Shown one piece after another: positions 760-45,828 of a DNA stretch of 64,000 bases (position 1 is the stretch's first letter; every line of letters starts with the position of its first letter). The position numbers and the translations under genes were made by a program. The stretch covers positions 71 to 64,070 of the forward strand of contig JAZDHJ010000059.1 in assembly GCA_043805995.1 (NCBI GenBank), written 5' to 3'. A model generated the notes under the pieces. The model was given only the letters and a program-made list of their open reading frames with translations. It was not told where the DNA came from and did not search any database. This DNA comes from Candidatus Uhrbacteria bacterium. GTDB taxonomy: Bacteria > Patescibacteriota > Patescibacteriia > UBA9934 > GWF2-40-263.

Positions 760-850
760 GTCTTCGAGGGGTTGAACCACCCTTCCTCCTTCGCTCGGGC
801 TTCGGAAGGACAGGTCGCTCGTGGCGAGCTACGGAGTGGCGTGGCGGGGG
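760..850. repeat. CCTTCGC...CGGAAGG palindromic repeat cluster
   Basis: ccttcctccttcgctcgggcttcggaaggacaggtcgctcgtggcgagctacgg; same family as at 509-575, 5985-6050, 8521-8640, 18666-18740, 37880-38010 and 53505-54000. Confidence 0.55.
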
Positions 851-885
851 ATTTTTTGGTTGGATTAAATTGGTGGTTTTTGTTT

Positions 886-3800
886 TTATATGGAAGCAAG
901 TCGTTGATTAACTTGTTCCAGTTGTTGGTCTAACTCAACGATTTGTTCTGAAAGTCTTTCTTTTTTATTTGTTTTTACTGTTTTTAGTAATTTTGCTGTC
1001 AATCTTCCTTTCTGGCTTTCTAATGAAATAGCTTTTTTTCGCAACTCGTCAGCATCCATATCTTCCAATCTTTTTTCTCCTGTTATCTCATCAAATCTAG
1101 CTGGCCCGGCTGGCGATACGATCGCTGGATTTACTGGAGGTGCTTCGGTTTCGGTTGGGGCCTCGACTGGTGAGGCGGCTTCGACTGGAGCCGTTTCAGA
1201 CGACGGGGTATCAGAAACCTCGGCGGCTGATGAAGTGGCTCCTTCAGCCTCTATCAACACCAACAAATCCTGTGCTGCTTGAATTTCAGCTCGAACTTTC
1301 ATCAGACGTTGTGGATTTGTGTTACTTTCAACCAATCTTTCTTCTTCACTGCTTAATCTTGCAACTTTTTCTTCTAATTTTTCAGACGGAAAATCTTTCA
1401 TTTTTTCGGTTAGTGTCCGAACAAAATCTTGATATCTTCTGTCTAATTCTTGTTGGATTGAAGCACTTTCTTCACTAGGCTCCATACCAGGCTCTTCGGC
1501 TTCTTTGGCTCTTAACGTTTCAAGTCGAGAAGACAACTCGTTGATTGAAGAATTTAAATCAATCGGCGTTTCAACGACCGGTGGTTTTTCAGCTTCATCT
1601 GGTTGGGCTTCGGTGGGAATCTCGGTCGTCGTTGAAGCGACAGGGACAGCTTCGACCGGCTGTTGGGCTAATAAAATATTCACGGCACCCAATTCACCAT
1701 CACAGCTGGTTAAAGCTAGCTTTATTTCACCAATCGGCCTGCCTGCTTCTCTGGCCAATCTTAATTCGTTTTTCAACCGGCTAAATTCTTTTCTTAAAGC
1801 GGCGGCTCTATTTTCCAAACTAGAAACTGGCTCGCCTTCATAATCTTTCATGAAACTCTCAATCAAGTCATTAAACTTTTCCTCTAAAACCTGATCAAGA
1901 ACTTTTCGTCTTTTTTCTAACTCTTTGTTATCCAGATCTCCTTTCAAAGCCGCGTCCAACTCAAAAGAAAGTCTTTGCAAAGTCGAACCTCTTTCTTTTC
2001 TGTATTCTGCCAAGATTGCCGCCTCGTCTATGGCGACTTCTGGTGCTGCAGGTGCGGTTTCGGCCGATCTTTTTTGATCAAGTAAGGTTTTAATCGCGGT
2101 TATTTCTACATCATGTTCAGCTAAAAGACCTTTTATTATTCCAGCAGTTATTTCGTTGCCTGCCGCCAGAGCTTTTAATAAACCTTGTTCTACTCTACCT
2201 TTCGCTTCAGTCAACTCCTCCAAACGTCTTTTCAAATCTGAAAGCGAATCGTCTTTATGTTCAGTTAAAAATTTTTGAACCGCCTCAAGTTTTTCTTTTA
2301 AAACCTGATCAAGAACTTTTTTTCTTAATATTAATTCAGCGTCGTCTGGATGTTCTTCTAAAGACGCTCCCAAAATAGGAGAAATATTTTGCAAACTCAA
2401 AATACTATTTTTTTTATATTCTGCAAGTATTGCCACCTCATCTGTGGCAGTCTCAGCAGCTCCGGTTTCGGCTTCAGACCCCGAAGCAGGTTCAGTCGAC
2501 GAACCAACGGGTGACTCTGCTTCTGGAATGTTCAGCAAATTTTCAATTGCCTGTTCTTCGGCACCGCATTCACTCAAATCCAACATTATTTGAGCCTCGG
2601 TTTCCCTGGCTGCGATTCGAGGTTCTGTTTTACGAGAATTTTGCAAAGCCGACTTCAGTTCAAGTCGTCTTTTTCCTAATTCGTCACGTCTTGATTCCAA
2701 ATCAGAAACCAATTTGCCCCTGTGTTTTTCTGTAAAAATTTCAACCGACGCCTTTATTTTTTCCTCCTTAATCGCTTTGATGATAGCTAACCTTAATTTT
2801 AATTCTGGATTTTCTTCATCTTTTTCCCGATCTAAAACCAAATCAAAATCAACCTTTCTTAAATCTAAATCGCTGAGTTTACTGTATTCGTCTCTCATTC
2901 GTTCTTTTTCATCCCTGGCTGTTTCGACCAACCCGGCCGGTTCGGCCGGCACGGTTGAGTCGGCTGGTTTTTCTGGTGGAGATGAGGCTGCAGGGGTTTC
3001 GACAATTGGTGGAGCAGTAACCGGCGTTTCAACAGACGACGAGGCGTCTCTGATAAACAAATAAAGTGCTTCCAGGTCTTTTCCAAGGTATGAAGCGGCC
3101 CGAGCTTTTGCAACACCGGATTTATAATCTCTCAAAGATCCCTCTATGGAAATAATTACATCTTCAAAATCGTAAAGATCTCGAATTTGTGGTGGTACCC
3201 TTAAAGCGAGGATATCTCCTTTAATGCGAAACCTAACAACATCATGTACCTCGGGGTCAGAAATAATTGATGAAGATTCTGCCAATGGACCCACCCTACC
3301 CCTGCGTTCTTCAAGCGCTGTTTTAAATTTAATCCATAGTGGTTCAGATTGTGTCAGTTTTTCAAAAACCGCCCTTCCTTCTTTTATTAACTTAGCAATT
3401 TCTTCCGTTTCACGCTCATTTAATTCAAAATTTATACCGTACAAGGAATTCGGATATTTGCCCTCATGTTTTGCAAAACATCTTTTTTGTATGCTCTTCA
3501 AAAGATCTAAATCCAATAAACTCTCAACTCCAGCGGCTTCCGGCGATCCAACAACTTTTTCTGGTCCATCTCCTTTACTTGAACTGATATCACCAACCGG
3601 TTTAGATGCTTCAGCGCCGGCCACGACAGGCTTTACCACCTCAGCTGCCAAACTTCGATATTCTCTAATATTCAGATATTCCCCGCCTGCCCAAGTAAGA
3701 CCAAAAAACGAACCGCTTGGTTCTGGTTTAAAAACAAGTTTTTCTGCTTTACCTTTTTCTACCAGTTTCCCGCCTTCGATGCCGGTCAATTTATATTTAC

Positions 3801-5571
3801 CATCCGCTGTTTTTTCCACAATCAAAGAATTGCCATCGGACTGCGTGCCGAATTCTAAACGACCGAGAGCCGGTAGTTCTTGAAGAGCTTTTTCAACCGC
3901 TGTCGAAACATTCTCGACTCGCCGACCACCTTTTTCCAAAAGACCAGACCATCTACCGGGAATCATTTTTTCTGGAACAGGCGGAGTGGTTTCCACAGTA
4001 GCTGTAACAACAGAAGGTTTAACCAATTCTTCGCGAGTCGGAGCAGGTGGAACAACCTCAACAACTGGGGCAACTGGTGCTACTCGAACCGTTTCAACTG
4101 GCCGAACAGCTGAAGTTGTACCTGGAACAACCGAAGATCTTCTGGTAAGCCCGGCCTTTGCCACGGTCTTATAATTCGTAAAAACACCTTCCACGTTTAC
4201 CCCTGATGAAATACCGCGTCCAGAAAGTTCTACTCCGGCCAGCGAGCCGATTGCCCCGCCATCACTACTGCCAACGACTGAGACAAACTCAATGTAAGAA
4301 TTTTTAATTTTTGCTCGTTCCTTTGGAGTGGCCGTAGTCATGGCTTCAACAAATTTGGTAAAGGTTTTTATTTCATTACCTTTTCCGTCAACAATAAGCA
4401 TTGGTGGTCTTAAACCAGGTTCAATTCTGTTCCAATTTTCAATAACATATTGAAAAACATTTTTATATTCATTAAAATTTTTGGCAACCAGCCGTTCAGA
4501 CTCTTCTTTATCCTTCCTAATATATTCAGTTTTTGGTAAACCAAAAGCCTTGAGAAAAGTCAACATTGTTTCGGCAGTAAATTTTTCTGCAACTTCGGTT
4601 TTAGTCTCTGACACGGGTGTTATATCAGAACCGGCCGCAACAATCGGTTCAGCTGTTTCAGCCACATTTGCAACAACTACGGCTACCGGTTCTTCTGTTT
4701 CAGTTCCCGCCTTACGACCAATGACCTCAACAACTATTTTTTTTAATTTTCTATAACTCAGCACTCGTTTATAAATATTCTCTGCCTTATCAAAAGCGTC
4801 TTTATAACCCGGCTTTGTGGCTTTGATCTTGGCAAGATCTTCATAAGCCTTAACACGTTCTTTCTCTAATTTTTCCAAAATTTTATCGTAATTGGCCGCA
4901 ATCTTTTTAAGTTCCGCCAATTTTATATCTTCAAAACCAGTATTGGTTCTTTCAACCAACGGAATTTCTGGCAATGGACCGGATGTCTCTGTTGATGACA
5001 TATCAGGATTTTTTAAAATTGGTGGAACGACTTCAGGAACAACAGCTGGTTTAGGCGCTTCAGCTGTCGCTTTTTTTGCCGTTTCATTTAATTCACCCAA
5101 TCTTTCAGCGTAATCCGCTTTTCTTTCCTCTCGTTCTCTTGTTTCTCTTTCAGTATTTCGCAAAGCTTTTAATTTTTGTTTGGTGCGGTTACGAACCGCG
5201 GTTAATCGATTTCCTAAAGTTCCTATTTCGACCCCTAGAGGGGCCAAAATCTCCGCACGCTCTTCTTTAAGACCTATGCGATTGAGGACCTCTATAACCA
5301 TGGTTGGAGAAGCGATAAATTTTTTTTGCATTTCTTCAGACATCACATCCGTAAGAGCGCTTATATCTTCAATAATTTGCAAAGCCGCTTCATCACGAGC
5401 GTCAGGACGATCCTCTCTTTCGTATTGATCCACCAAACTTTTAAATTTTTTTTCGATAGCCGAAGAAGAATCAATCTTTGATGATTCTTGTGGCGCCTCG
5501 ACCGCGGCTGGTGTTGTCTCGACCGCTGGGGGTGCTTCATTTTCTATTGGAGCAATTGGTGTGTCTGCCAT
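886..5571 (-). CDS. Very large hypothetical protein of about 1560 aa; cytoplasmic-looking, coiled-coil and Pro/Ala/Glu-rich linkers, with an internal tandem duplication of about 130 aa
   Basis: Long ORF; the likely true start is MADTPIAPIENE at 5571, since the upstream part of the track ORF runs into the preceding small gene. No signal peptide. The two copies of the repeated block start with VAILAEYKKNS... and AAILAEYRKERGS... and share ...LDQVL(K/E)EK... further on. No recognisable catalytic motif. Confidence 0.55.
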   Translation of the reverse strand: MADTPIAPIENEAPPAVETTPAAVEAPQESSKIDSSSAIEKKFKSLVDQYEREDRPDARDEAALQIIEDISALTDVMSEEMQKKFIASPTMVIEVLNRIGLKEERAEILAPLGVEIGTLGNRLTAVRNRTKQKLKALRNTERETREREERKADYAERLGELNETAKKATAEAPKPAVVPEVVPPILKNPDMSSTETSGPLPEIPLVERTNTGFEDIKLAELKKIAANYDKILEKLEKERVKAYEDLAKIKATKPGYKDAFDKAENIYKRVLSYRKLKKIVVEVIGRKAGTETEEPVAVVVANVAETAEPIVAAGSDITPVSETKTEVAEKFTAETMLTFLKAFGLPKTEYIRKDKEESERLVAKNFNEYKNVFQYVIENWNRIEPGLRPPMLIVDGKGNEIKTFTKFVEAMTTATPKERAKIKNSYIEFVSVVGSSDGGAIGSLAGVELSGRGISSGVNVEGVFTNYKTVAKAGLTRRSSVVPGTTSAVRPVETVRVAPVAPVVEVVPPAPTREELVKPSVVTATVETTPPVPEKMIPGRWSGLLEKGGRRVENVSTAVEKALQELPALGRLEFGTQSDGNSLIVEKTADGKYKLTGIEGGKLVEKGKAEKLVFKPEPSGSFFGLTWAGGEYLNIREYRSLAAEVVKPVVAGAEASKPVGDISSSKGDGPEKVVGSPEAAGVESLLDLDLLKSIQKRCFAKHEGKYPNSLYGINFELNERETEEIAKLIKEGRAVFEKLTQSEPLWIKFKTALEERRGRVGPLAESSSIISDPEVHDVVRFRIKGDILALRVPPQIRDLYDFEDVIISIEGSLRDYKSGVAKARAASYLGKDLEALYLFIRDASSSVETPVTAPPIVETPAASSPPEKPADSTVPAEPAGLVETARDEKERMRDEYSKLSDLDLRKVDFDLVLDREKDEENPELKLRLAIIKAIKEEKIKASVEIFTEKHRGKLVSDLESRRDELGKRRLELKSALQNSRKTEPRIAARETEAQIMLDLSECGAEEQAIENLLNIPEAESPVGSSTEPASGSEAETGAAETATDEVAILAEYKKNSILSLQNISPILGASLEEHPDDAELILRKKVLDQVLKEKLEAVQKFLTEHKDDSLSDLKRRLEELTEAKGRVEQGLLKALAAGNEITAGIIKGLLAEHDVEITAIKTLLDQKRSAETAPAAPEVAIDEAAILAEYRKERGSTLQRLSFELDAALKGDLDNKELEKRRKVLDQVLEEKFNDLIESFMKDYEGEPVSSLENRAAALRKEFSRLKNELRLAREAGRPIGEIKLALTSCDGELGAVNILLAQQPVEAVPVASTTTEIPTEAQPDEAEKPPVVETPIDLNSSINELSSRLETLRAKEAEEPGMEPSEESASIQQELDRRYQDFVRTLTEKMKDFPSEKLEEKVARLSSEEERLVESNTNPQRLMKVRAEIQAAQDLLVLIEAEGATSSAAEVSDTPSSETAPVEAASPVEAPTETEAPPVNPAIVSPAGPARFDEITGEKRLEDMDADELRKKAISLESQKGRLTAKLLKTVKTNKKERLSEQIVELDQQLEQVNQRLASI

Positions 5572-5581
5572 ACAAAAAAAA

Positions 5582-5782
5582 TTAATTTGTTTTAGAAGTA
5601 AAAATTTTTGAAATAAAACCACGAATCCGATCGGCGGCTTTCGCTTCACCGGCTTTAATGGTTTTTTTGACCAAATCGTCGTGTTCGTTTTTAATCGCCG
5701 CCACTGACTGTTCAAACTCTTGAGTGATTTGAACGGCCGCTTTTATGCGATCGTCGGCAGTTTGTGAGGTGGGGTCGGCCAT
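5582..5782 (-). CDS. Small hypothetical protein (66 aa); stop lies 10 bp upstream of the large coiled-coil gene start
   Basis: ORF only; the tight spacing suggests co-transcription. Confidence 0.35.
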   Translation of the reverse strand: MADPTSQTADDRIKAAVQITQEFEQSVAAIKNEHDDLVKKTIKAGEAKAADRIRGFISKIFTSKTN

Positions 5783-6050
5783 ATGTTGGTGATTATAGCA
5801 CGGATTGGGGTGGAGTTGGGAGGCGACATGGGCTTCAGGCCTCGCCCGTAGGCTATGGCCGAGGGGGCTTGATGGGCTTGGCTGGAGAGGCCAGAAGAGG
5901 CTTAAAAGGCTTGAGAGGCTTTGTGGGGGATGGTTTTAGGGACTAAGGTTGGAACTGGGAAACGTTTCTAAATCAAAGCCACGCGGCCCTCCTTCGCTAG
6001 GGCTACGGAAGGGTGAACGAGATCCTTCTCTGGCTCAGGATGACAAATAT
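5783..6050. repeat. Composite intergenic repeat block: a G-rich GGCCTCGCCCGTAGGCTATGGCCGAGGGGG unit plus CCTTCGCTAGGGCTACGGAAGGG and GATCCTTCT-TGGCTCAGGATGACA units
   Basis: The same submotifs are seen at 8521-8640, 32690-32870, 35395-35570 and 42404-42740. Confidence 0.55.
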
Positions 6051-6054
6051 TGTA

Positions 6055-8442
6055 TTATTTTTTTCGTCTCAATTTTGCTAAAGCGAGACGAGTTGGTAAA
6101 ACTGAGTCTGGGTTTAGGGACAAACTGTCGATACCGGCTTTCATTAACATGACGGCGAAGGCGGGATAATCTGATGGGGCCTGGCCGCAAATACCGACTT
6201 TGATTTTGTGCCCGCGAGCGACTTTGATGACTTTTTTAATAAGTTCGACCACCGCCGGATTCCGTTCATCGGCCACGGCGTGCAAACGCGGAGAATCACG
6301 ATCAAGGCCGAGGGTGAGTTGGGTTAAGTCGTTTGAACCGATACTGAAACCGTCAAAAATTTCGGCGAACTCGTCAGCTAAAATTATGTTCGAAGGAATC
6401 TCGACCATAACAAAAACTCTCAGCTTGTTTTTTCCACGCACCAGACCAGCTTTTTTCATAACTGCAAGCACCTTCTGCCCTTCCTCAACCGTTCGACAAA
6501 ATGGCACCATGGGGACAACATTATTCAAACCCATTTCATCGCGCACCCGACGAATAGCTTCGCACTCCAAAAGAAAAGCTGGCTCAAAATCCGGATCATA
6601 ATACCGCGAAGCACCGCGCCAACCGATCATGGGATTTTCTTCTTTTGGTTCAAACTCGGCACCGCCTAAAAGCGAAGCATACTCATTAGTTTTAAAATCA
6701 GAAAAACGAACGATAACATCATTCGGATAAAAAGCCGCGGCAATTTTGGCGATACCACTGGCTAATTTCTCGATGTAAAAATCTGTCGGTTTTTTATAAC
6801 CGACTGTCAACTTAGCAATCTTGGCCACCAAACTTCGGTCTTTAAGTTTTGGATATCTGACAAGCGCCATTGGGTGAGCCTTAACCATGTTGGCAATAAT
6901 AAATTCCTCGCGAGCCAAACCAACACCATCGTTTGGAATACGACACAACTCAAAAGCCGTATCGGGCTGACCGACGTTCATCATGATTTTGATCGGCAAC
7001 TTTGGCACTTTAGAAATATTCGTTCGTTTGATTTTGAACAATAACTCGCCCTCATAAACTCGGCCATCCTCACCCTCGGCACAAGAAACCGTAATTTTTG
7101 AATTATCTTTAATCATCTGAGTTCCCTTGCCTGTACCAACCACACAAGGCACGCCAAGTTCGCGGCTAACGATGGCTGCATGCGAAGTTCGACCACCGCC
7201 ATCGGTCACAATGGCCGCGGCTTTTTTCATAATCGGTTCCCAAGCCGGATCAGTCATTCTGGCCACCAAAACATCGCCGGTCTGAAAAGCGTCAATCTGT
7301 TTTGGACTCTTAACCAACCTGGCTCGACCAGAACCGATTTTTGAACCGACAGCGATGCCTTTAATAATAATTTTTCCTGGCTGAGTTAAACGATACTCCT
7401 CGATGACCTCGGTATTTTTTTGCGCCTGAACTGTCTCGGGCCGAGCTTGAACAATAAAAAGTCGACCGGTTGGACCGTCCTTGGCCCATTCAATATCCAT
7501 CGGCTTAGCAAAAGCCTTTTCAATCTCGACTGCCCACTTGGCCAATTGCAAAACCTCATCGTCACTAAGAGAAAACTTGCCGCGTTCCTTAGCCTCAGTC
7601 GCTACAATCCGGCTACCGCCATCTTTCTTCATCACATACTTCAAAAGCTTACTGCCAAGTTTCCGTTCCAAAATTGGTCGATGTTTTTCCAAAGTATTTT
7701 TAAAAACCGAAAAATGATCAGGCACAGCTTTGCCTTGAACAATCGCCTCACCATAACCCCAAGAAGCATCGATATTAACTATTCGTTCAAAACCCGACTC
7801 GGTATCAATGGTAAACATGACACCAGAAGCGGCGCGATCGGAACGAATTAAAAATTGCACGCCGACCGACATGGAAACCAAACGGTGTTTAAATTTATTA
7901 TTGACCCGATAAGAAATGGCCCGATCAGTAAAAAGCGAAGCAAAACATTTTTTAACTGCTTCGACGACTTCATTTTTCCCGGAAATATTTAAATACGAAT
8001 CGTGCTGGCCAGCAAAAGAAGCGCCGGGCAAATCCTCGGCCGTGGCTGAGGAGCGCACAGCTACCGTGATGGCTTTTGAACCGAGCTCAGCCGATAATTT
8101 TTCGTAAGACTTGATGATCATCTTCGTTAATTCATCCGGCATCGGTGTCGACATTATCAACTCACGAATCTTTTTTCCCTCACGAGCCAAAACCTCGGTA
8201 TTCTGAACATCAATCGACTCGACCATTTGCCAAACTTGTTTGGCAATTTTCCCCTCAGTTAAAAAAAACCGAAAAGCTTCGGCTGTAACCGCAAAACCCG
8301 GCGGTACTGGGAAACTAATTTTGTTTTTTTTGCTCGATCGCAGACCAAGACGAGTCATTTCACCGAGAGCTGCATTTTTACCACCAACCAAACCAACATC
8401 AGTAATTTTAATTTGTTTGAACCACAGAATGAAGTTGGACAT
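6055..8442 (-). CDS. ppsA: Phosphoenolpyruvate synthase (pyruvate, water dikinase)
   Basis: 795 aa; N-terminal GLVGGKNAALGEM; GGRTSHAAIVSRELGVPCVVGTG phosphohistidine-domain motif; C-terminal PEP-utilising TIM-barrel motifs; size matches PpsA. Confidence 0.85.
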   Translation of the reverse strand: MSNFILWFKQIKITDVGLVGGKNAALGEMTRLGLRSSKKNKISFPVPPGFAVTAEAFRFFLTEGKIAKQVWQMVESIDVQNTEVLAREGKKIRELIMSTPMPDELTKMIIKSYEKLSAELGSKAITVAVRSSATAEDLPGASFAGQHDSYLNISGKNEVVEAVKKCFASLFTDRAISYRVNNKFKHRLVSMSVGVQFLIRSDRAASGVMFTIDTESGFERIVNIDASWGYGEAIVQGKAVPDHFSVFKNTLEKHRPILERKLGSKLLKYVMKKDGGSRIVATEAKERGKFSLSDDEVLQLAKWAVEIEKAFAKPMDIEWAKDGPTGRLFIVQARPETVQAQKNTEVIEEYRLTQPGKIIIKGIAVGSKIGSGRARLVKSPKQIDAFQTGDVLVARMTDPAWEPIMKKAAAIVTDGGGRTSHAAIVSRELGVPCVVGTGKGTQMIKDNSKITVSCAEGEDGRVYEGELLFKIKRTNISKVPKLPIKIMMNVGQPDTAFELCRIPNDGVGLAREEFIIANMVKAHPMALVRYPKLKDRSLVAKIAKLTVGYKKPTDFYIEKLASGIAKIAAAFYPNDVIVRFSDFKTNEYASLLGGAEFEPKEENPMIGWRGASRYYDPDFEPAFLLECEAIRRVRDEMGLNNVVPMVPFCRTVEEGQKVLAVMKKAGLVRGKNKLRVFVMVEIPSNIILADEFAEIFDGFSIGSNDLTQLTLGLDRDSPRLHAVADERNPAVVELIKKVIKVARGHKIKVGICGQAPSDYPAFAVMLMKAGIDSLSLNPDSVLPTRLALAKLRRKK

Positions 8443-8444
8443 AT

Positions 8445-8769
8445 GGTGGAAATTATTGAATTTTCAAATTATTTAATTATTGAATTATGGAAAATTATCT
8501 TTTACATTTTTAAAATTAACCCTTTCTCCTTCTCTCGAGCTTCCTCCTTCGCTCGTGACGAGCTACGGAAGGACGCGGTCGGAAGGACAAACCGCTCGCG
8601 TCGAGTGGCAAACGAGATCCTTCTTTGGCTCAGGATGACAGGTGAATTGGAATGTCAAATGACAAATGATGGAATTTATTATTCTAAAAATTCAACCTCC
8701 ATACTTAGACACCCCTAACAATCGAGCTTCCTTAATTCAATAATTCAGAAATTAAATAATTCAATAATT
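8445..8769. repeat. Intergenic repeat block: AT-rich AATTATTGAAT iterations plus a CCTTCGCTCGTGACGAGCTACGGAAGG unit and a GATCCTTCTTTGGCTCAGGATGACA unit
   Basis: Direct reading; the same units occur elsewhere (5985-6050, 17770-17830, 60090-60110). Confidence 0.5.
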
Positions 8770-10158
8770 TCAAATCTCCTTTATCTCCACAAAATTTACC
8801 CGTTTACCGACTGGCTGACCAGCTAAAATGATTATTTTTTCTCCCTGTTTAACCAAATGTTCTTTTTTTAATCTTTTAATGGATTTGGCAATCAAATCAT
8901 CAATATTAAAAGTTTTAGGAATGGCGATAGGCGAGACAGCCCAGGATAAACACAATTGATGGCGAACAAATTCGGAAGCGGTGGCGGAAATAATCGGTAG
9001 TTCTGGTCTAAAACGGCTAACCAATCGCGCAGTACTACCGGAAAGTGTAGCTACTAAAATAGCATTGGCCTTAACTGTACGAGACAATAAGTTGGCCGCG
9101 CCGCCAATAGCATCCTCGATAACTTTTACAAAACCCGCCGCCTCATCTGGCGAAACATCGTCAAAAGGTGAGGCCTCGGTTTCCATAATAATTTTTGCCA
9201 TGGTCTCGACGGCCTCGACCGGGTATTTACCGGTTGCGGTTTCACCCGACAACATGACGGCGTCGGTGTGATCAATAACCGCATTGGCAACGTCGGAAAC
9301 CTCGGCCCGCGTCGGTCGAGGATTTCGGATCATGGAATCGAGCATTTGGGTGGCCACAATAACTGACTTACCAATTGTCCGGCACTTTTCAATTATTTCT
9401 TTTTGCACTAAAGGCACCTGCTCGGCCGGAATCTCGATTCCTAAATCACCACGAGCCACCATGACGGCGTCGACTTCTTTGAGAATTTCATCGAAACGAC
9501 GAACCGCTTCGTGCTTTTCGATTTTCGCAATAATCATGGGAATTGGTTGACTGGCTTTGGCTTTTGTTTTTAAAAGACGTCGCAGATTGCGAATGTCTTT
9601 AGGATCAGTCACAAACGACATGGCGACATAATGTACGCCTTCACGGACACAAAAAGCCGCATCTAAACGGTCTTTTTCGGTAAGTGGTTCAATTTTTAGC
9701 GTTGAGTCGGGAAAATTTAAACCTTTATGAGAAGTAAGCGTGCCACCGACGTTAACTTTAATTTTTAAAAATCCGGACTTACCGCCGATACACTCGCCAT
9801 CCATAATTCCATCATCAAGCAAAATCCGATCGCCTTTTTTGACGTCACGAAAAAGATTCGGATAAGTGACTGGAACCTCAATTGTTTCTCCTTTAACAAT
9901 TTTCAAACCTGCCGCCGGCAAATCACCAACTCTAATTTTTGGTCCTTGGAGATCACCAATAATAGCAATCGGTTCACCAAGTTTTTTCTCAACCGCTCGA
10001 ATACTTCTAATCGTCGCCCGATGACTTTTATAATCACCATGCGACAAATTTAATCGAGCCACGTTCATACCACTGCGAATCAATCGGGTAAGTTTAACAG
10101 TTGATGAAGAAGCTGGACCGATGGTGCAAACTATTTTAGTTCTTTTTTGTGGTTTCAT
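8770..10158 (-). CDS. pyk: Pyruvate kinase
   Basis: 462 aa; N-terminal TKIVCTIGPAS...MNVARLNLSHG is characteristic of pyruvate kinase. Confidence 0.9.
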   Translation of the reverse strand: MKPQKRTKIVCTIGPASSSTVKLTRLIRSGMNVARLNLSHGDYKSHRATIRSIRAVEKKLGEPIAIIGDLQGPKIRVGDLPAAGLKIVKGETIEVPVTYPNLFRDVKKGDRILLDDGIMDGECIGGKSGFLKIKVNVGGTLTSHKGLNFPDSTLKIEPLTEKDRLDAAFCVREGVHYVAMSFVTDPKDIRNLRRLLKTKAKASQPIPMIIAKIEKHEAVRRFDEILKEVDAVMVARGDLGIEIPAEQVPLVQKEIIEKCRTIGKSVIVATQMLDSMIRNPRPTRAEVSDVANAVIDHTDAVMLSGETATGKYPVEAVETMAKIIMETEASPFDDVSPDEAAGFVKVIEDAIGGAANLLSRTVKANAILVATLSGSTARLVSRFRPELPIISATASEFVRHQLCLSWAVSPIAIPKTFNIDDLIAKSIKRLKKEHLVKQGEKIIILAGQPVGKRVNFVEIKEI

Positions 10159-10169
10159 ATTGTTTTTTT

Positions 10170-10384
10170 GGGGTTAAGGGGACGGAAGGGGTTAAAGGGG
10201 TTGCAGAGGGTTTTAAGTTGGGTCGGAGTTTTGTTGGTTATTATCGGAGGGTGGTTTTTAGGTGATTAAAAAGGTGATTATTTTTTTGATAGTTAATAAC
10301 TCACCAATCATCTAAATAATCACTCTAATCAACACCAAATAAAATCCTCTACAACCCCTTCCGCCCCTTAAACCCCTTATTCCC
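10170..10384. mobile_element. MITE-like G-rich element of about 215 bp with terminal inverted repeats (GGGTTAAGGGGACGGAAGGGGTT ... AACCCCTTCCGCCCCTTAAACCCC)
   Basis: The ends are reverse complements of each other; it sits exactly between the pyk start and the htrA stop; related to the 35395-35570 and 42404-42740 elements. Confidence 0.5.
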
Positions 10385-11591: not shown

Positions 11592-11733
11592 GGGTTACGA
11601 ATCACGAATTTTGACACGAATCTACGAATCAACGAAATTGGTTTTTATTTTCAAAACAACATTCGTTGATTCGCCGTGCCCATCCGTAGCTCGTCACGAG
11701 CGAAGGTGGGTGACACAATTCGTTATTCGTAAC
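11592..11733. mobile_element. Degenerate third copy of the GGGGTGCGAATAACGAAT-TIR MITE
   Basis: Left end GGGGTTACGAATCACGAAT and internal ATTCGTTATTCGTAAC resemble the TIRs of the copies at 18647-18879 and 36235-36431; it contains a CCTTCGC-family unit. Confidence 0.4.
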
Positions 11734-11805: not shown

Positions 11806-11832
11806 GTAGAGACAGGGCATTACCCTGTCTCT
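11806..11832. repeat. Hairpin TAGAGACAGGGCATTACCCTGTCTCTA, the same hairpin carried inside the MITE copies
   Basis: Perfect 11-bp stem; MITE copy 2 has TAGAGACAGGGCATTGCCCTGTCTCTA and copy 1 has TAGAGACGTTGCATTGCAACGTCTCTA, which differs by compensatory changes. Confidence 0.6.
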
Positions 11833-11877
11833 ACGCCGTTTTACATTTTTTTAAATTTTTGGCTTTTTTACTTCATA

Positions 11878-11990
11878 GGACTTTCTCATTTGGCTGCAGA
11901 ACGAGGAAAAACCTGAATTTTTTGTGAGACGTATGCCTTATACGTTGAACAAAAAATTCAGGCTTTGACGAAGTTATGCGCCAAATGTGA
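11878..11990. repeat. About 105-bp nested-palindrome element, copy A, immediately downstream of the ftsZ stop; inverted relative to copy B at 13300-13405
   Basis: CCTGAATTTTTTG...CAAAAAATTCAGG outer stem and ACGTATGCCTTATACGT inner stem; its reverse complement matches 13300-13405 at roughly 85%. Confidence 0.65.
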
Positions 11991-11995
11991 AAGTC

Positions 11996-13270
11996 CTACA
12001 TCATCTTTTTCCGAATAAACGCCGGGATCTCCAATTCCTCTTCCTCGGTTGTCTGTTGCGGTTGTGGAATTGAAATTGGTCTTGGGGTTAATTTTGGTTG
12101 CGGTTGTTGCAGTGGCGGCATGTTTACATTAATTGGCCGTGATTGAGTTTGTTCGTCGATAAAACGTGGTTTCATGTTGGTTGATGGTGGTTGGAGTGAA
12201 GAGGGTTTTGTTTGATGCTTTTCTTCCTCTTCACGATCACGGCGGGAGAAAAAAGAACTGGGTGTCCAAGTGCCTTGGGATTGAACCTCTACCCCACCAC
12301 CTGGACGACGACGATCGTGATGATCAAAGCCAGTGGCGACTACAGTAACTCTAACCTCTTCATTTAAACTTTCGTCGATGTTGGCACCGAAAATAACCTT
12401 AGCATCTTCATCGGCTGAACTGGTAATAATTTTAGCGGCCTCGGCCACCTCGTGCATACCCAAATCCTTACCGCCGGTAATGGTAAACAAAATGCCTTTA
12501 GCACCATCAACCGAGAGCTCGAGGAGTGGACTGGCAATAGCCTGCTTAGCCGCCTCAACGGCTCGATTTTCACCAGTCGCTCGGCCAATACCCATAAGTG
12601 CCGAACCAGCATTTTCCATGATGGCTCTAACGTCGGCAAAGTCGACGTTAATAAGACCTGGAATAGTAATAAGTTCTGAAATACCTTGCACACCCTGACG
12701 CAAAACATCGTCGACGATATTAAAGGCATCGAGGAGCGAAGTTTTTTTATCAATAATTTGTAAAACCCGATCATTAGGAATGGTAATCACTGTATCAACA
12801 TACTGAAGAAGTTCAGCAAAACCTTCTTCGGCAATTCGACGGCGTTGGGCGCCTTCGAATGAGAATGGTTTTGTGACCACGGCTACAGTAAGAGCACCAA
12901 TATCTTTTGCTAATTTAGCAACCTCGGGAATAGCACCGGTACCGGTTCCGCCGCCCAAACCACAAGTTAAAAAAACCATGTCCGCACCATTAAGTGCATT
13001 ACGAATATCATTCTGACTTTCCTCGGCCGAACGACGACCAAGTTCCGGATTCATACCAGCTCCCAAACCGCGGGTAATACTTTTACCAATGGCAATTTTA
13101 GTTGGGGCGGGATTATTATGAAGAGCCTGAACATCAGTGTTGATAGCAATAAAATCAACACCTTTTATTTTGTCGCTGATCATGCGAATAACGGCCGCGC
13201 CACCACCGCCGCCAATACCGCAAACTTTTATTTTAGCGAAGGTTTCAATGTCCGGTTGTACTTGTGCCAT
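11996..13270 (-). CDS. ftsZ: Cell division protein FtsZ
   Basis: GGGTGTG tubulin signature, N-terminal IKVCGIGGGGGAAV; Pro/Gln-rich C-terminal linker. Start chosen at MAQVQPD. Confidence 0.95.
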   Translation of the reverse strand: MAQVQPDIETFAKIKVCGIGGGGGAAVIRMISDKIKGVDFIAINTDVQALHNNPAPTKIAIGKSITRGLGAGMNPELGRRSAEESQNDIRNALNGADMVFLTCGLGGGTGTGAIPEVAKLAKDIGALTVAVVTKPFSFEGAQRRRIAEEGFAELLQYVDTVITIPNDRVLQIIDKKTSLLDAFNIVDDVLRQGVQGISELITIPGLINVDFADVRAIMENAGSALMGIGRATGENRAVEAAKQAIASPLLELSVDGAKGILFTITGGKDLGMHEVAEAAKIITSSADEDAKVIFGANIDESLNEEVRVTVVATGFDHHDRRRPGGGVEVQSQGTWTPSSFFSRRDREEEEKHQTKPSSLQPPSTNMKPRFIDEQTQSRPINVNMPPLQQPQPKLTPRPISIPQPQQTTEEEELEIPAFIRKKMM

Positions 13271-13299
13271 ATAAATGTTGTTCCAGAACTTCCTCGTTT

Positions 13300-13405
13300 G
13301 GCGCATAACTTCGTCAAGACCTATATTTTTTCGTTCAACGTATTCGCATACGTCTCACAAAAAAATATAGGTCTTTCCTTGTTCTGCATCCAAACGAGAA
13401 AGTTC
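13300..13405. repeat. About 105-bp nested-palindrome element, copy B, immediately upstream of the ftsZ start
   Basis: CCTATATTTTTTT...AAAAAATATAGG and ACGTATGCGAATACGT; the stems differ from copy A by compensatory substitutions on both strands. Confidence 0.65.
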
Positions 13406-13690
13406 TGTGTTCAAGTGAGTTACCGATGAACACTTTTTGTCGTCATTTAAATCTCTTCAGGACTACTTTAGAGCTCAAGAGGGTCAATTGTAAAGGCAGG
13501 CCTGTGGACAAATAAACTCTTGGAAATTAATGAATTATTTAATTATTGAATTTCTGAATTATGGAGGGTTATTTATTTTAAAATATTTTTCTTCAAACAA
13601 AAAAATGGATCATCCGTAGATGATCCGAGCGTCGAGTGGTTTTGATTTCGAAGAACGAATCTGGTTCGAAGTGATTCAAGAAACTGCGAA

Positions 13691-18541: not shown

Positions 18542-18565
18542 ATGGGTTGAAATTTCTAAATTATT

Positions 18566-18618
18566 CCCCGCCGGCATAGGATTTTGGCGGGGTCCCGCCA
18601 AAGGCCTCCGCCGGCGGG
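18566..18618. promoter_or_regulatory. Nested cruciform element CCCGCCGGCATAGGATTTTGGCGGGGTCCCGCCAAAGGCCTCCGCCGGCGGG, immediately 5' of a start codon
   Basis: Outer stem CCCGCCGGC/GCCGGCGGG and inner hairpin TTTGGCGGG-GTC-CCGCCAAA; copies at 45752-45804 and 60033-60083, partial copy at 33466-33510; flanked by AATTATTGAAT iterations. Confidence 0.45.
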
Positions 18619-18646
18619 ATAATTATTGAATTATTGAATTATTGGG

Positions 18647-18879
18647 GGGGTGCGAATAACGAATTTTGTTATCCCGCCGACGGAGGCCTTCCTCCTACGC
18701 TCGGGCTTCGGAAGGACAGGTTGGCGGGATCCCGCTCCGAGGCCTACGAGGCGGGACGAATCTACGAATCTACGAATATGAATTTTCGTCCGTAGAGACG
18801 TTGCATTGCAACGTCTCTACGATCGATCGCCGACATTCGTATATTCGTAAATTCGTAATTGATTCGTTATTCGCACCCC
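18647..18879. mobile_element. MITE copy 1 (233 bp) with 18-bp terminal inverted repeats GGGGTGCGAATAACGAAT / ATTCGTTATTCGCACCCC
   Basis: TIRs read directly; internal hairpin TAGAGACGTTGCATTGCAACGTCTCTA; carries a nested CCTTCGC-family unit that copy 2 lacks; ends 5 bp beyond the stop of the adjacent gene. Confidence 0.7.
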
Positions 18880-18884
18880 AATCT

Positions 18885-19772
18885 CTACAACCTTCCTTCC
18901 CCAAGCGGATTGTAACCACCGTCTATTTCGACCTTATCGGAATAACCATCGCCGTCGGTATCAGATTTGGCTGGATCGGTTTTGTATTTATGATACTCGT
19001 CATAGTCAGAAAGTCCATCACTATCTGAATCTATGTTTTCATCACTGATGCCAAGTCGTTTTTCAATTGACGCGTCAAGATTATCCAAATCTTTATCACC
19101 AACCCCAACCGAATCAACGCAACCGCCCTGATCTTGGGGGTTCGACAAAAGCATGCACTGGCCAGGATCTCTGGACGCAATCGCCTTACTTAAGGCTTCT
19201 TGTCTAGTACAAATACTCGGATCAATACCAGTTCCTTGGCATCCTTTTTGCTGAGCAATCTGTTCAGAGACAGTATTAATACATCTGGTTTTACCAATTT
19301 CGCTATTAATTTTTTCGCACCAAGACAAATCTAAATTCACCCCAGCCAAACTTCGATAAACCGTATCCTGACAACCGGTTTGTTTTTCCTTGATTGGAAT
19401 ATTTTTACAGGCTTCAGGATCATTTTCTTGTAAAGCTATTTTCCAAACACAAGTCACCAAAGAGTCATCGGTCAGCTTATTGCAAATTTCAGCTGAACCG
19501 ATTGAACCGGCACTCATTTCCACCATATCAGCTCGACACTGTTCAGGAATTTTAGCTTGATCGCATTCAGACAAAGTTCGGTCCAACTCCAAACTTACTC
19601 GTTCAATGACCGCGGCCTGCTGACCAGCTTCGGTTTTTGTCGAAATCAACCACCTGGCCCCAAAAATAATCAAAATGATAAGAATAACCGTGCCACCAAT
19701 TATAGCAATTGTCTTCCAAGAAATAGGCCCTCGGGTAGGCGCATATTGATCAAAACCGTTCATAAAAAGCAA
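18885..19772 (-). CDS. Membrane-anchored Cys-rich extracellular protein with C-terminal TSP3-like repeats
   Basis: N-terminal TM helix TIAIIGGTVILIILIIFGARWLI; more than 20 Cys; C-terminus DSDSDGLSDYDE...DTDGDGYSDKVEIDGGYNPLGEGRL; start is 4 nt from the giant gene stop. Confidence 0.6.
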   Translation of the reverse strand: MLFMNGFDQYAPTRGPISWKTIAIIGGTVILIILIIFGARWLISTKTEAGQQAAVIERVSLELDRTLSECDQAKIPEQCRADMVEMSAGSIGSAEICNKLTDDSLVTCVWKIALQENDPEACKNIPIKEKQTGCQDTVYRSLAGVNLDLSWCEKINSEIGKTRCINTVSEQIAQQKGCQGTGIDPSICTRQEALSKAIASRDPGQCMLLSNPQDQGGCVDSVGVGDKDLDNLDASIEKRLGISDENIDSDSDGLSDYDEYHKYKTDPAKSDTDGDGYSDKVEIDGGYNPLGEGRL

Positions 19773-32689: not shown

Positions 32690-32870
32690 GAGGGAGTAAA
32701 TTGTCTGGGGCGTTGAGGCATTAAAGCCTCGCCCGTAAACCAGCTCTGCCCATAGAGCAACACCTGAGGGGCTATGGCCGAGGGGCACTAAGGCAAGGAA
32801 AATATTTCTTAGGCAAAATCCTCCATGCCCCTAAGGCCCTTTAACGCCCCACAACGCCCCCCCCTAAACC
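32690..32870. repeat. G-rich intergenic repeat of the GCCTCGCCCGTAAAC...GGCTATGGCCGAGGGGCACTAAGG family
   Basis: Shares GCCTCGCCCGTA and GGCTATGGCCGAGGGG cores with 5800-5890, 35410-35460 and 42430-42470; its translation produces spurious N-terminal extensions on flanking ORFs. Confidence 0.5.
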
Positions 32871-33307: not shown

Positions 33308-33329
33308 ATTTTTGATTGGGTTATGTAAA

Positions 33330-33600
33330 TAGGTAGAAACATAGAAATTGTAGATTGGTAGAAAACGTAGAATTTTTGTCGGTTGTTTGCTTTTGAACTC
33401 TGATTAAAATGATTTTCTGATTACAATGATTTATTTTTAATCCAATTCCAACAATCATGGCCATCACTTCCCGCCGGTGGAGGCCTTTGGCGGGATCCCG
33501 TTCGAAACTAAGAGGCGAGATAATCAGTTTAATCAGAGTTCAGCCAACCAACACAACAATCTACGCCGTCTACGACTTCGACTATTCTACTAAAACCAGT
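33330..33600. repeat. Intergenic palindromic element (TTGAACTCTGATTAAA ... TTTAATCAGAGTTCAG) containing a partial cruciform unit CCCGCCGGTGGAGGCCTTTGGCGGGATCCCG
   Basis: A 16-bp inverted repeat flanks the core; the TTTGAACTCTGATT motif is shared with the 42404-42740 element. Confidence 0.5.
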
Positions 33601-35391: not shown

Positions 35392-35394
35392 ATT

Positions 35395-35570
35395 TTTGGC
35401 TTGGATTAAAGGGGACGGAAGGCCTCGCCTGTAGGCCAGGCTATGGCCGAAGGGGTTTAAGGGGTTGAAGAGTTTTTTAAAATTTGGTTGGAACACAGAA
35501 TATTATTCTCTATTCAAAACCGTAATAAAAATCCCCTGCAACCCCTTCGACCCCTTATTCCCCAAAAAAA
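35395..35570. repeat. G-rich MITE-like intergenic element (GGGGACGGAAGGCCTCGCCTGTAGGCCAGGCTATGGCCGAAGGGGTTTAAGGGG ... CCCCTTCGACCCCTTATTCCCC)
   Basis: Ends are approximately inverted; cores are shared with the 10170-10384 and 42404-42740 elements. Confidence 0.5.
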
Positions 35571-36234: not shown

Positions 36235-36431
36235 GGGGGGCGAATAACGAATTGATTATCCCGCCGACGGTGGCCTTTGACGGGATCCCGCTCCGAGTCC
36301 TACGAGGCGGGACGAATTTACGAATCTACAAATATGGATTTCCATCCATAGAGACAGGGCATTGCCCTGTCTCTACAATCGGTCATATTCGTATATTCGC
36401 AAATTCACAAAAAATTCGTTATTCGCACCCC
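36235..36431. mobile_element. MITE copy 2 (197 bp), TIRs GGGGGCGAATAACGAAT / ATTCGTTATTCGCACCCCC
   Basis: Collinear with copy 1 except for a missing nested CCTTCGC unit; internal hairpin TAGAGACAGGGCATTGCCCTGTCTCTA. Confidence 0.7.
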
Positions 36432-42740: not shown

Positions 42741-42742
42741 AT

Positions 42743-45804: not shown

Positions 45805-45828
45805 AATAATTAAATAATTTCTTTCCCC

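What the first reader, a model, noticed from the sequence alone, without database searches (positions are those of the whole stretch)
18647..18879. MITE with 18-bp terminal inverted repeats, present in two full copies and one degenerate copy, carrying a hairpin that is conserved by compensatory substitutions
The copies at 18647-18879 and 36235-36431 share the TIRs GGGG(T/G)GCGAATAACGAAT / ATTCGTTATTCGCACCCC and a collinear interior. Copy 1 additionally contains a nested CCTTCGC-family unit, which is a repeat inside a repeat. The internal hairpin is TAGAGACGTTGCA-TTGCAACGTCTCTA in copy 1 and TAGAGACAGGGCA-TTGCCCTGTCTCTA in copy 2. The stem is maintained by paired changes on both arms, which argues for selection on the structure, perhaps an RNA or a protein-binding cruciform, rather than neutral decay. 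A degenerate copy lies at 11592-11733, and the same hairpin stands alone at 11806-11832. No transposase is present in the window, which is the defining property of a MITE.
Basis: seen in the sequence. Interest (0 to 1): 0.65.

Follow-up and report, generated by a model that had tools for sequence, protein, structure and literature searches.

The report
REP-carrying palindromic mobile repeat in Uhrbacteria
The repeat is real and belongs to a family of about 144-base non-coding hairpin elements that recently spread between genes of one Candidatus Uhrbacteria species, but its "conserved hairpin" is an already described type of repeat (a "double-foot" REP tied to RAYT tyrosine transposases), so this is a new family of a known kind and not a new structured RNA.

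Summary
Copies at 18647-18879 and 36235-36431 share 18-bp TIRs, ACGAAT-word arms and a 29-bp hairpin. A degenerate copy lies at 11592-11733 and a lone hairpin at 11806-11834.

A metagenome scan found at least 20 more copies in unrelated flanks, nearly all from one sample that holds a close relative. The canonical unit is about 144 bp and folds as one long hairpin. It has no target-site duplication, and no transposase was found nearby. The window copies are this unit plus nested palindromes.

The hairpin is a separate module. The same 29-mer occurs in Cyanobacteria, Bacteroidota, Chloroflexota, Patescibacteria and other phyla, with a covarying inner stem. In 5 of 120 such loci it lies in frame inside an IS200-like HUH gene, and in the four complete genes it also flanks the gene. 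This matches published TnpA_REP subclass 2.4 (RAYT group 4) with "double-foot" GTAG REPs.

Relatives at about 80% protein identity have 3-44 nt spacers where the window has 179-325 nt of such elements. Strains whose coding DNA is about 91% identical carry different cassettes in the same spacer. The lone hairpin is an orthologously conserved ftsZ terminator.

The MITE label is only partly right. The element is mobile-like and non-autonomous, but closer to a REP or REPIN than to a classical MITE.

The parts
18647..18879 (.). Copy 1 of the ACGAAT-word palindromic element: the canonical unit of about 144 bp plus two nested insertions, 233 bp in all
   Evidence: Folds as one branched hairpin, RNA dG -125.7 kcal/mol, z -11.9. 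Its right end lies 5 nt from the stop codon of the upstream gene (18885-19772, minus strand).
18647..18664 (+). Left TIR, GGGGTGCGAATAACGAAT
   Evidence: Invariant apart from single-copy substitutions across the 16 aligned family members.
18862..18879 (+). Right TIR, ATTCGTTATTCGCACCCC
18672..18756 (.). Nested CCCGCC...GGCGGG palindrome, inserted at TTA^CGAAT of the left arm. It is absent from the canonical element.
   Evidence: Alignment A6. Same family at 18563-18623, 33466, 45748 and 60029. The same insertion at the mirrored site occurs in L151.
18687..18721 (.). CCTTCC...GGAAGG hairpin unit nested inside the nested palindrome (third level of nesting)
   Evidence: 97% identical to 781-815. 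Absent from copy 2 at the same place.
18792..18820 (.). Double-foot REP hairpin GTAGAGACGTTGCATTGCAACGTCTCTAC (GTT/AAC allele) at the apex of the element
   Evidence: The same 29-mer lies inside and beside tnpA_REP-like genes in L018, L095 and L105.
36235..36431 (.). Copy 2 (197 bp): the canonical unit plus the nested CCCGCC palindrome
   Evidence: At the orthologous site, the 82% relative L161 is empty and L158 (HisRS 98%) holds a different ACGAAT-word palindrome.
36259..36312 (.). Nested CCCGCC palindrome of copy 2, at the same insertion site as in copy 1
36348..36376 (.). REP hairpin, AGG/CCT allele. One foot is degenerate (ATAG on the plus strand, which reads as a G-U pair on the transcribed minus strand).
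11592..11733 (.). Degenerate REP-less member built of ACGAAT words, with a nested GC-rich hairpin at 11677-11713
   Evidence: families D5, D20; inverted repeats I5, I24.
11806..11834 (-). Lone REP (AGG/CCT allele) followed by T8 on the minus strand: a terminator-like site downstream of ftsZ
   Evidence: Terminator scan. The same REP lies at the orthologous place in L166 (FtsZ 83%), and a REP-derived ordinary terminator lies there in L165 (FtsZ 94%).

Best explanation
The locus is one copy of a non-coding, full-length palindromic dispersed repeat of about 144 bp. Its ends are GGGGTGCGAATAACGAAT and its arms are built of ACGAATNT words. The family has recently colonised the short spacers between co-directional genes in one Candidatus Uhrbacteria (Patescibacteria/CPR) species.

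At its apex it carries a 29-bp "double-foot" GTAG REP. This is the cognate repeat of TnpA_REP subclass 2.4 (RAYT group 4), an IS200-like HUH tyrosine transposase family that acts on single-stranded DNA hairpins. The window copies are the canonical unit with further small palindromes nested into regions that are unpaired in the folded element.

The paired substitutions in the hairpin are the normal sub-family variation of REPs. What has to be kept is a hairpin with GTAG feet, and the GTT/AAC and AGG/CCT versions are two resident REP alleles.

**Shown**
- The family exists and has a canonical structure.
- The insertions are nested.
- There is no target-site duplication.
- Relatives have empty orthologous sites.
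- The hairpin is a REP linked to a RAYT gene, including in a congeneric Uhrbacteria genome.

**Inferred**
- The composite is moved in trans by such an HUH enzyme, or a related one, through a single-stranded hairpin intermediate, and not by a DDE transposase.
- Some copies, such as the one after ftsZ, have been co-opted as RNA terminators.
For: **A true dispersed family**
- The metagenome scan returned 31 contigs, 19 from sample Ga0172379 and 2 from Ga0265292. Sixteen hold complete TIR pairs in unrelated, housekeeping flanks, and 15 of these are 110-155 bp long.
- That sample holds a close relative: L153 is syntenic with the window at 87-88% nucleotide identity, and L158 has a 98%-identical HisRS.
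- The canonical unit folds as a single hairpin, DNA dG -65.7 kcal/mol, z -15.3.
- The arms never vary and even their mismatches are conserved. This fits recent copying better than selection on pairing.
- The sub-family with the nested CCCGCC palindrome at the same site is found at three different loci: both window copies and L151. So the composite moves as a unit.

**Consistent with a single-strand hairpin mechanism**
- No TSD: the longest flank repeat averages 2.4 nt against 2.0 in a control with mismatched flanks.
- Nested units sit in loops or internal loops of the folded host element.
- The asymmetric centre is oriented 8:1 against gene direction by script, or 10:2 with three hand-assigned copies; p about 0.04 either way.

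**The hairpin is a REP**
- The genome scan hit its 120-locus limit. The exact 29-mer sits in unrelated flanks in many phyla.
- The inner stem stays Watson-Crick in 113 of 126 copies, across 9 triplet types.
- In L008, L018, L095 and L105 the REP lies in frame inside a Y1_Tnp / REP-associated tyrosine transposase-like gene and again before and/or after that gene. The partial gene at the contig edge of L081 also contains it.
- 74 of the 120 best homologues contain the REP-encoded peptide VETL[QH]CNVST or a close variant.
- Motifs of the four complete genes (NH[VM]H; WQ, with TGA at the Trp codon in L018; YIxNNP, YIKDNP in L018; 195-220 aa) and the REP inside the gene match published subclass 2.4 and its double-foot REPs (PMC6006769). 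The phylum range matches RAYT group 4 (PMC5581495).
- Candidatus Uhrbacteria GW2011_GWE2_45_35 has 84% FtsZ identity to the window organism and carries such a gene.

**Insertion or turnover**
- Orthologous spacers are 3, 44 and 128 nt in L161 against 179, 325 and 316 nt in the window. The 12-21 kb of syntenic sequence in L161-L164 holds no REP, ACGAAT-array, CCCGCC or AATTATTG unit.
Against: - No tnpA_REP gene lies in the window or in any of the 31 TIR-bearing contigs. Its presence in this exact genome is therefore unproven.
- The ends of the 144-bp unit carry no GTAG foot. REP-less members exist (L129, L134, L142, L145, L158, and window copy 3), so the shell can persist, and perhaps spread, without the REP.
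- The orientation bias rests on 9-12 copies.
- The metagenome search needed an exact 18-base match, so a diverged parent IS would have been missed.
Confidence: 0.6

Rival explanations
1. Classical MITE: an internally deleted derivative of a DDE-transposase insertion sequence with the same 18-bp TIRs, moved in trans by cut-and-paste.
For: - Perfect 18-bp TIRs, small size, no coding capacity, and at least 20 dispersed copies of uniform length.
- One 561-bp member (L151) carries a gene between the TIRs.
Against: - No target-site duplication at 18 copies or against the empty orthologous site.
- No TIR pair enclosing a transposase in 31 contigs or in the viral collection.
- The L151 cargo is a GxxExxY PD-(D/E)XK protein, not a transposase, and no such gene lies near any other copy.
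- The element is palindromic along its whole length and built of short words, unlike a deleted IS.
Confidence: 0.12
2. A functional intercistronic RNA or DNA structure kept by selection (for example an RNase III or processing site, an mRNA stabiliser, a terminator, or a protein-binding cruciform). On this view the copies are similar because of shared function, and the double substitutions reflect selection on the fold.
For: - Very stable folds.
- The ends sit 4-10 nt after the upstream stop and 9-15 nt before the downstream start in many tandem-gene contexts.
- The lone REP after ftsZ is terminator-like and orthologously conserved. In three informative copies (window lone REP, window copy 2, L166) I read by eye from the sequences that the mismatch is a G-U pair on the mRNA strand.
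Against: - The whole element is absent from the orthologous spacers of relatives, which are 3-44 nt long.
- In strains whose coding DNA is about 91% identical to the window, the same spacers hold unrelated cassettes or a different variant.
- The arms are invariant including their mismatches, so they give no covariation support.
- No promoter-like site was found in copy 1, only a single promoter-like match in the copy 2 region, and no terminator-like site within either element. No Rfam family matches.
- Function may apply to single co-opted copies but does not explain the family.
Confidence: 0.1
3. No dedicated transposase. The palindromic cassettes arise and spread through replication slippage of words, hairpin-primed template switching (inverted duplication around a small palindrome such as the REP), and gene conversion or recombination between spacers.
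For: - Many different word-array palindromes fill the spacers of this genome.
- Spacers of close strains differ by whole cassettes while their edges stay identical.
- REP alleles are unlinked to shell variants, as expected under frequent conversion.
- Half-REP duplications lie beside REPs in other genomes.
Against: - At least 16 copies of a sharply bounded unit of about 144 bp, with identical ends, lie at non-homologous sites. This is hard to obtain by conversion, which needs flanking homology.
- The nested units have precise boundaries.
Confidence: 0.15

Closest known systems
Double-foot GTAG REP sequences with TnpA_REP subclass 2.4 (RAYT group 4) (Quentin et al. 2018, PMC6006769; Bertels et al. 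2017, PMC5581495)
   Same: - The hairpin is a long palindrome with 5' GTAG and 3' CTAC.
[quoted passage not shown]
- It is found in Cyanobacteria, Bacteroidota, Caldilineae-type Chloroflexota and scattered other phyla.
   Different: - Here the REP sits at the apex of a larger TIR-bounded palindrome, in a CPR bacterium.
- The papers do not print this sequence and their text, searched for the terms, does not mention CPR.
- The cognate gene was not found in the window.
REPINs (REP doublets forming hairpins; Bertels and Rainey 2011, PMC3116915)
   Same: A non-autonomous, extragenic unit of about 100-150 bp that folds into one long hairpin. It has no target duplication, is proposed to be moved by a RAYT, and is present in many near-identical copies.
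   Different: - The arms are not two inverted REPs. They are ACGAAT word arrays with their own 18-bp ends, and a single REP lies in the middle.
- REP-less members exist.
GTAG-tagged REP families and TIR repeats next to tyrosine transposases (TIRtrons/TIRYT) (Di Nocera et al. 2013, PMC3733652)
   Same: - REP sub-families with alternative complementary stem residues.
- REPs located mainly between co-directional genes close to stop codons, and REPs inside genes.
- Moderately abundant TIR families that flank tyrosine transposase genes and share GGGGWSAS. The TIR here starts GGGGTGCG, a 7-of-8 match.
   Different: No tyrosine transposase flanked by this TIR was found. The 7-of-8 motif match is a lead, not a test.
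Bacterial MITEs (for example Nezha, NEMIS/Correia, RUP)
   Same: TIRs, 100-300 bp, non-coding, intergenic, able to fold, many copies.
   Different: No target-site duplication and no parent IS. Palindromic over the whole length.
Small dispersed repeats (SDR) of Nostoc (Elhai et al. 2008, Genome Res 18:1484). Cited from memory; the paper is not held by the library.
   Same: As I recall the abstract:
- hairpin units of 21-27 nt supported by compensatory changes;
- often embedded in tandem heptamer repeats or mini-transposons;
- nested in one another;
- inserted without duplication.

The Nostoc loci do show this REP inside a MITE-like unit and beside partial self-duplications.
   Different: I could not check whether any SDR family is this sequence. 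That paper described the elements as confined to a subgroup of cyanobacteria.

Membership tests
Classical MITE | Terminal inverted repeats | tested here: met
   18-bp TIRs. They are perfect in copy 1 and invariant apart from single-copy substitutions across the 16 aligned members.
Classical MITE | Target-site duplication flanking each copy | tested here: not met
   Longest flank repeat, allowing the boundaries to shift by up to 6 nt: mean 2.4 nt against 2.0 in the control, at inconsistent offsets. No duplication against the empty site in L161.
Classical MITE | Small, non-coding, many dispersed copies | tested here: met
   About 144 bp. Sixteen further complete copies plus end fragments, in unrelated flanks.
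Classical MITE | A related autonomous IS with the same TIRs | tested here: inconclusive
   None found in the window, in 31 TIR-bearing metagenome contigs or in the viral collection.
REP, double-foot GTAG type (the hairpin only) | Palindromic hairpin of 20-40 bp with 5' GT[AG]G and 3' C[TC]AC | tested here: met
   GTAG...CTAC, 14-15 bp stem. Definition from PMC6006769.
REP, double-foot GTAG type (the hairpin only) | Copies flank, and in subclass 2.4 lie inside, a tnpA_REP/RAYT gene | tested here: met
   Met in other genomes: L008, L018 (Candidatus Uhrbacteria), L095 and L105, plus the partial gene of L081. 74 of 120 homologues carry the REP-encoded peptide. Not shown in the window's own genome.
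REP, double-foot GTAG type (the hairpin only) | Repeated, mainly extragenic, in the host genome | tested here: met
   Three copies in 64 kb, all intergenic. At least 12 more in contigs of the close relative.
REP, double-foot GTAG type (the hairpin only) | Bound and cleaved as single-stranded DNA by its RAYT | not testable with these tools
   Needs biochemistry.
TnpA_REP subclass 2.4 / RAYT group 4 (the linked gene, in other genomes) | HuH NH[IFV]H, WQ, Y motif YIxNNP, about 194 aa, variable insert between HuH and Y | tested here: met
   - PNHVHGI or PNHMHGI, WQ, and YIINNP/YIANNP are read directly from the translations of L095, L105 and L008, at 195-220 aa.
- L018 deviates: TGA at the Trp codon of WQ, and YIKDNP.
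- PF01797 scores 23.9 bits against a cutoff of 23.
- NF047646 scores 60.3 bits, E 1.8e-16, below its equivalog cutoff of 80.
REPIN | Two REP sequences in inverted orientation forming the hairpin arms | tested here: not met
   The arms are ACGAAT word arrays. Only one REP is present, at the apex, and REP-less members exist.
REPIN | Long hairpin, no TSD, extragenic, many near-identical copies | tested here: met
Known RNA family (Rfam) | Match to a curated covariance model | tested here: not met
   Only tRNAs reach the gathering scores. The permissive scans over copy 1 and over the copy 3 / lone REP region give only sub-threshold hits to unrelated families, mostly hairpin-like miRNA precursors.

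The most novel reading that the evidence does not exclude
The short-word palindromic "shells" are a distinct class of hairpin-borne intergenic cassettes that has invaded a streamlined CPR genome. The ACGAAT, AATTATTG, AAGGGGTT and other families fill almost every spacer of this Uhrbacteria genome. They would insert into single-stranded loops of one another and into 3-40 nt operon spacers, and would be exchanged as cassettes between strains. The 29-bp double-foot REP would be a self-sufficient minimal substrate that seeds or rides them. This would be a mobilisation system not covered by the MITE or REPIN definitions.
Probability: 0.2. Interest if true: 0.65.

Novelty: new member of a known kind. 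Interest (0 to 1): 0.4.

Why it matters
- The result removes an apparent new structured RNA by showing that the hairpin is a REP of a described RAYT class.
- It records that this REP/RAYT pair reaches CPR bacteria.
- It shows that one Uhrbacteria species has had its normally tiny operon spacers inflated 5- to 60-fold by nested palindromic repeats that turn over between strains whose coding DNA is about 91% identical. That is unexpected for genomes regarded as streamlined and poor in mobile DNA.
- The strain-to-strain differences give natural filled and empty sites for studying how REP-type elements move.
- The ftsZ terminator is a clean example of a REP kept as a terminator across species.

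Tried and rejected
1. **GxxExxY nuclease as the mobilising enzyme.** The 561-bp member L151 carries a TIGR04256 gene. phmmer found no such ORF near any of the 120 hairpin loci, the other TIR loci or the window, so it is cargo.
2. **Viral carriers.** The TIR scan of viral contigs gave one chance hit that reads as ordinary, probably coding, sequence with no second TIR. The hairpin occurs on only 3 viral contigs.
3. **Promoter function.** No sigma-70-like site in copy 1 and only a single promoter-like match in the copy 2 region.
4. **Identity with the published Nostoc punctiforme REP of Bertels and Rainey.** That REP is a different sequence.
5. **Finding the motif in open-access text.** No relevant paper prints it.
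6. **Elhai 2008.** The paper could not be read.
7. **Locating the window by exact protein look-up.** This failed because my ORF starts were too long. It was solved later through homologue names.
8. **Tracing RAYT homologues to the same metagenome.** The listing of cluster members returned no accession numbers.
9. **Stepwise compensatory evolution within the family.** Rejected. The six changed bases differ as a block while the shells are only about 9% diverged on average (the TIRs and word arms nearly invariant), and the allele is unlinked to shell variants (0.092 against 0.093).

Full report
**1. The observation**

- Copy 1 (18647-18879) and copy 2 (36235-36431) share 18-bp inverted ends, inverted arrays of ACGAAT-type 8-nt words, and a central 29-bp hairpin.
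- The exact TIR core occurs four times. Allowing 2 mismatches there are 9 matches against 2.4 expected.
- The hairpin pattern occurs three times against none expected.
- The unit nested in copy 1 is 97% identical to one at 781-815.
- The degenerate copy at 11592-11733 has related ends and words, no central hairpin, and a different nested hairpin.
- Both full copies also hold a nested CCCGCC...GGCGGG palindrome. The whole element, not only its ends, is self-complementary: RNA folds give z = -11.9 and -10.5.

**2. A real dispersed family**

A metagenome scan with the TIR returned 31 contigs, 19 of them from one sample (Ga0172379) and 2 from Ga0265292.
- Sixteen contigs hold a complete TIR pair, 15 of them 110-155 bp long, and several more hold ends cut by the contig edge.
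- The canonical unit is about 144 bp: TIR, three ACGAAT words, a short asymmetric spacer, the hairpin, a short spacer, three ATTCGT words, TIR.
- It folds as a single hairpin. As DNA, dG is -65.7 kcal/mol and z is -15.3.
- The flanks are unrelated housekeeping genes. No transposase family appeared in the Pfam results shown for them or for the window ORFs; for the batch scans only the 25 best-ranked families were displayed.
- The centre is variable cargo: either hairpin allele, a variant hairpin (L128), nothing (L129), another small repeat (L134), or a GxxExxY gene (L151).
- Against the canonical unit, the window copies have a CCCGCC palindrome inserted precisely at TTA^CGAAT. Copy 1 has a further hairpin inserted in that palindrome.
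- The same CCCGCC insertion lies at the mirrored site in L151, so this composite sub-family sits at three different loci and has moved as a unit.
- No target-site duplication exists.

**3. What varies**

On the 16-copy alignment the TIR and word helices never vary, and even their mismatches are conserved. They therefore say nothing for or against selection on structure and look like recent copies of a master.
- The hairpin helix has changes on both sides at 6 of its 14 pairs.
- The three inner pairs split 8:8 between GTT/AAC and AGG/CCT.
- This split is unlinked to variation elsewhere in the element. Mean shell distance is 0.092 within alleles and 0.093 between alleles.
- Six concerted base differences in shells only about 9% diverged on average, with the TIRs and word arms nearly invariant, are a block difference, not stepwise compensation.

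**4. The hairpin is a REP**

- The 29-mer lies in unrelated flanks in Nostocales and other Cyanobacteria, Bacteroidota, Chloroflexota, Patescibacteria (Uhrbacteria, Parcubacteria, Microgenomates, Buchananbacteria), Omnitrophota, Brocadiaceae and some Proteobacteria.
- The inner triplets take at least nine forms and stay complementary in 113 of 126 copies.
- In the Uhrbacteria locus L018 two copies bracket part of an ORF with an HUH motif.
- The same kind of ORF, and only that, recurs in L008 (Ferruginibacter), L095 and L105 (Nostoc), and as a partial gene at the contig edge of L081 (Saprospirales).
- In each gene a hairpin lies in frame inside it just after the HUH strand. In the four complete genes a second copy lies 15-45 nt after the stop or about 45 nt before the start, and sometimes both.
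- These ORFs hit Y1_Tnp and NCBIfam "REP-associated tyrosine transposase".
- At least 2,149 homologues exist, many named RayT. Of the 120 best, 74 contain VETL[QH]CNVST or a close variant, which is the hairpin read in frame. The word-based search favours such hits.
- Quentin et al. 2018 describe exactly this. TnpA_REP subclass 2.4 (RAYT group 4) has NH[IFV]H, WQ and YIxNNP motifs and is about 194 aa. It is found in Cyanobacteria, Bacteroidetes and various phyla. [quoted passage not shown]
- Bertels et al. 2017 give the same odd phylum range, including Caldilineae.
- Di Nocera et al. 2013 note that most REP families contain sub-families with alternative complementary stem residues.
- Within a locus the allele inside the gene matches the copy beside it: AAG/CTT in L008, and GTT/AAC in L018, L095 and L105.
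- A CPR-like contig (L157) has the AGG/CCT allele inside its gene.

**5. Organism and comparative evidence**

HisRS and FtsZ are 100% identical to proteins of an NCBI "Candidatus Uhrbacteria bacterium" MAG, on a 69,350-nt contig.

| Spacer | Window | L161 (HisRS 82%) |
|---|---|---|
| upstream gene to lepB | 316 nt | 128 nt |
| lepB to hisS | 179 nt | 3 nt |
| rpsU to yqeY | 325 nt | 44 nt |

- The 12-21 kb of L161-L164 contain no REP, ACGAAT-array, CCCGCC or AATTATTG unit.
- At the copy 2 site L161 is empty.
- L158 comes from the metagenome that holds the family. Its HisRS is 98% identical and its coding DNA about 91% identical to the window. With identical flanks, it has a different ACGAAT-word palindrome, without REP or CCCGCC unit.
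- The lepB-hisS spacer holds unrelated cassettes in the window and in L158.
- L153 is 87-88% identical to window 576-10331 and shows the same replacement at two more spacers.
- The elements fill tandem-gene spacers, ending 4-10 nt after the stop and 9-15 nt before the next start.
- The lone REP is different. In L166 (FtsZ 83%) the same AGG/CCT REP lies at the same place after ftsZ, followed by a T run and the conserved -10 box of the next gene.
- In L165 (FtsZ 94%) the site holds a REP-derived ordinary terminator.
- In the three informative copies I read the single mismatch, by eye from the sequences, as a G-U pair on the mRNA strand.
- The congener GW2011_GWE2_45_35 (FtsZ 84%) carries the subclass 2.4 gene.

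**6. Mechanism**

*Shown*
- A sharply bounded palindromic unit is present at many non-homologous sites.
- It is gained or lost between close relatives, without duplication of the target.
- Smaller palindromes are nested in regions that are unpaired in the fold.
- The apex module is a REP whose family is tied to HUH tyrosine transposases, one of which occurs in the same genus.

*Inferred*
- Movement goes through a single-stranded hairpin, catalysed in trans by such an enzyme. This fits the missing duplication, the loop-directed nesting and a weak orientation bias (8:1 by script; 10:2 with three hand-assigned copies; p about 0.04 either way).

*Open*
- What recognises the shell ends is unknown. 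They lack a GTAG foot, and REP-less shells exist.
- The TIR start GGGGTGCG resembles the GGGGWSAS motif of TIRs beside tyrosine transposases. This is only a lead.

**7. Rivals**
- A DDE-type MITE is disfavoured by the tested absence of duplications and of a parent IS, but is not excluded.
- A conserved functional RNA is contradicted by the absence or replacement of the element in relatives. It holds only for co-opted copies such as the ftsZ terminator.
- Spread by slippage, template switching and conversion alone fits the cassette turnover, but not identical bounded units at unrelated sites.

**8. Verdict**

This is a genuine, well-described repeat. The label MITE is acceptable only loosely. 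The hairpin with "compensatory" changes is an already known REP type. The 144-bp family and the heavy colonisation of Uhrbacteria spacers are new instances of known kinds.

Noticed in passing
window 8449-8771; 10164-10380; 32760-32870; 33310-33590; 35389-35570; 42400-42745; 45640-45830; 52236-52350; 57866-57945: Almost every intergenic spacer is a long imperfect palindrome built of 7-9 nt words (AATTATTG, AAGGGGTT with GGTGATTA inside, GTAGA, GGAGTCGT; CCACCACT repeated about 9 times in tandem). 10164-10380 and 42400-42745 are homologous to each other. Orthologous spacers in relatives at about 80% identity are 3-44 nt.
   Followed up: partly
window 18563-18623, 18672-18756, 33466-33520, 36259-36312, 45748-45808, 60029-60089: A palindrome family of about 55 nt, CCCGCCG...CGGCGGG. 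It occurs free and also nested inside the ACGAAT element, always at the same site.
   Followed up: partly
window 511-575, 781-844, 5984-6018, 8539-8605, 11677-11713, 18687-18721, 37912-38018, 53538-53574, 53679-53713, 53850-53990: GC-rich hairpin units of about 35 nt (CCNTCC-GWA-GCTCG-NNN-CGAGC-GWA-GGNNGG), often directly beside tRNA genes. The conserved GWA/GWA internal loops are unexplained.
   Followed up: no
window 6019-6045 and 8614-8640; L134, L136, L142, L145: Another small repeat, GAGATCCTTCTCTGGCTCAGGATGACA. In L134 it replaces the REP at the centre of an ACGAAT element.
   Followed up: partly
window 11870-12000 (+) and 13296-13425 (-); L158 798-925: ftsZ is bracketed by two inverted copies of a palindromic element of about 125 nt. 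A third copy lies in the lepB-hisS spacer of the close strain.
   Followed up: partly
L151 434-994: A 561-bp member of the family carries a GxxExxY PD-(D/E)XK gene (TIGR04256, 113.8 bits) where the REP normally sits. No such gene lies near any other copy or hairpin locus.
   Followed up: yes
L018 256-786 (Candidatus Uhrbacteria UBA12432): The tnpA_REP-like gene has TGA at the conserved Trp of the WQ motif. It is either a pseudogene or a recoded or misread codon.
   Followed up: no
About 30 Nostocales loci among L001-L120 (for example L002, L007, L022, L041): In Nostoc the same REP commonly sits inside a MITE-like unit with TIR TTAGACATCTCCRGAAA. Several loci (L011, L035, L037, L076, L098, L105) show half-REP duplications beside a full REP.
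   Followed up: no
L128 5090-5116; L165 about 2340-2375: REP variants in which GAGAC/GTCTC has become AAAAC/GTTTT on both arms, giving an ordinary hairpin-plus-T-run terminator. This suggests REPs decay into, or are recruited as, terminators.
   Followed up: partly
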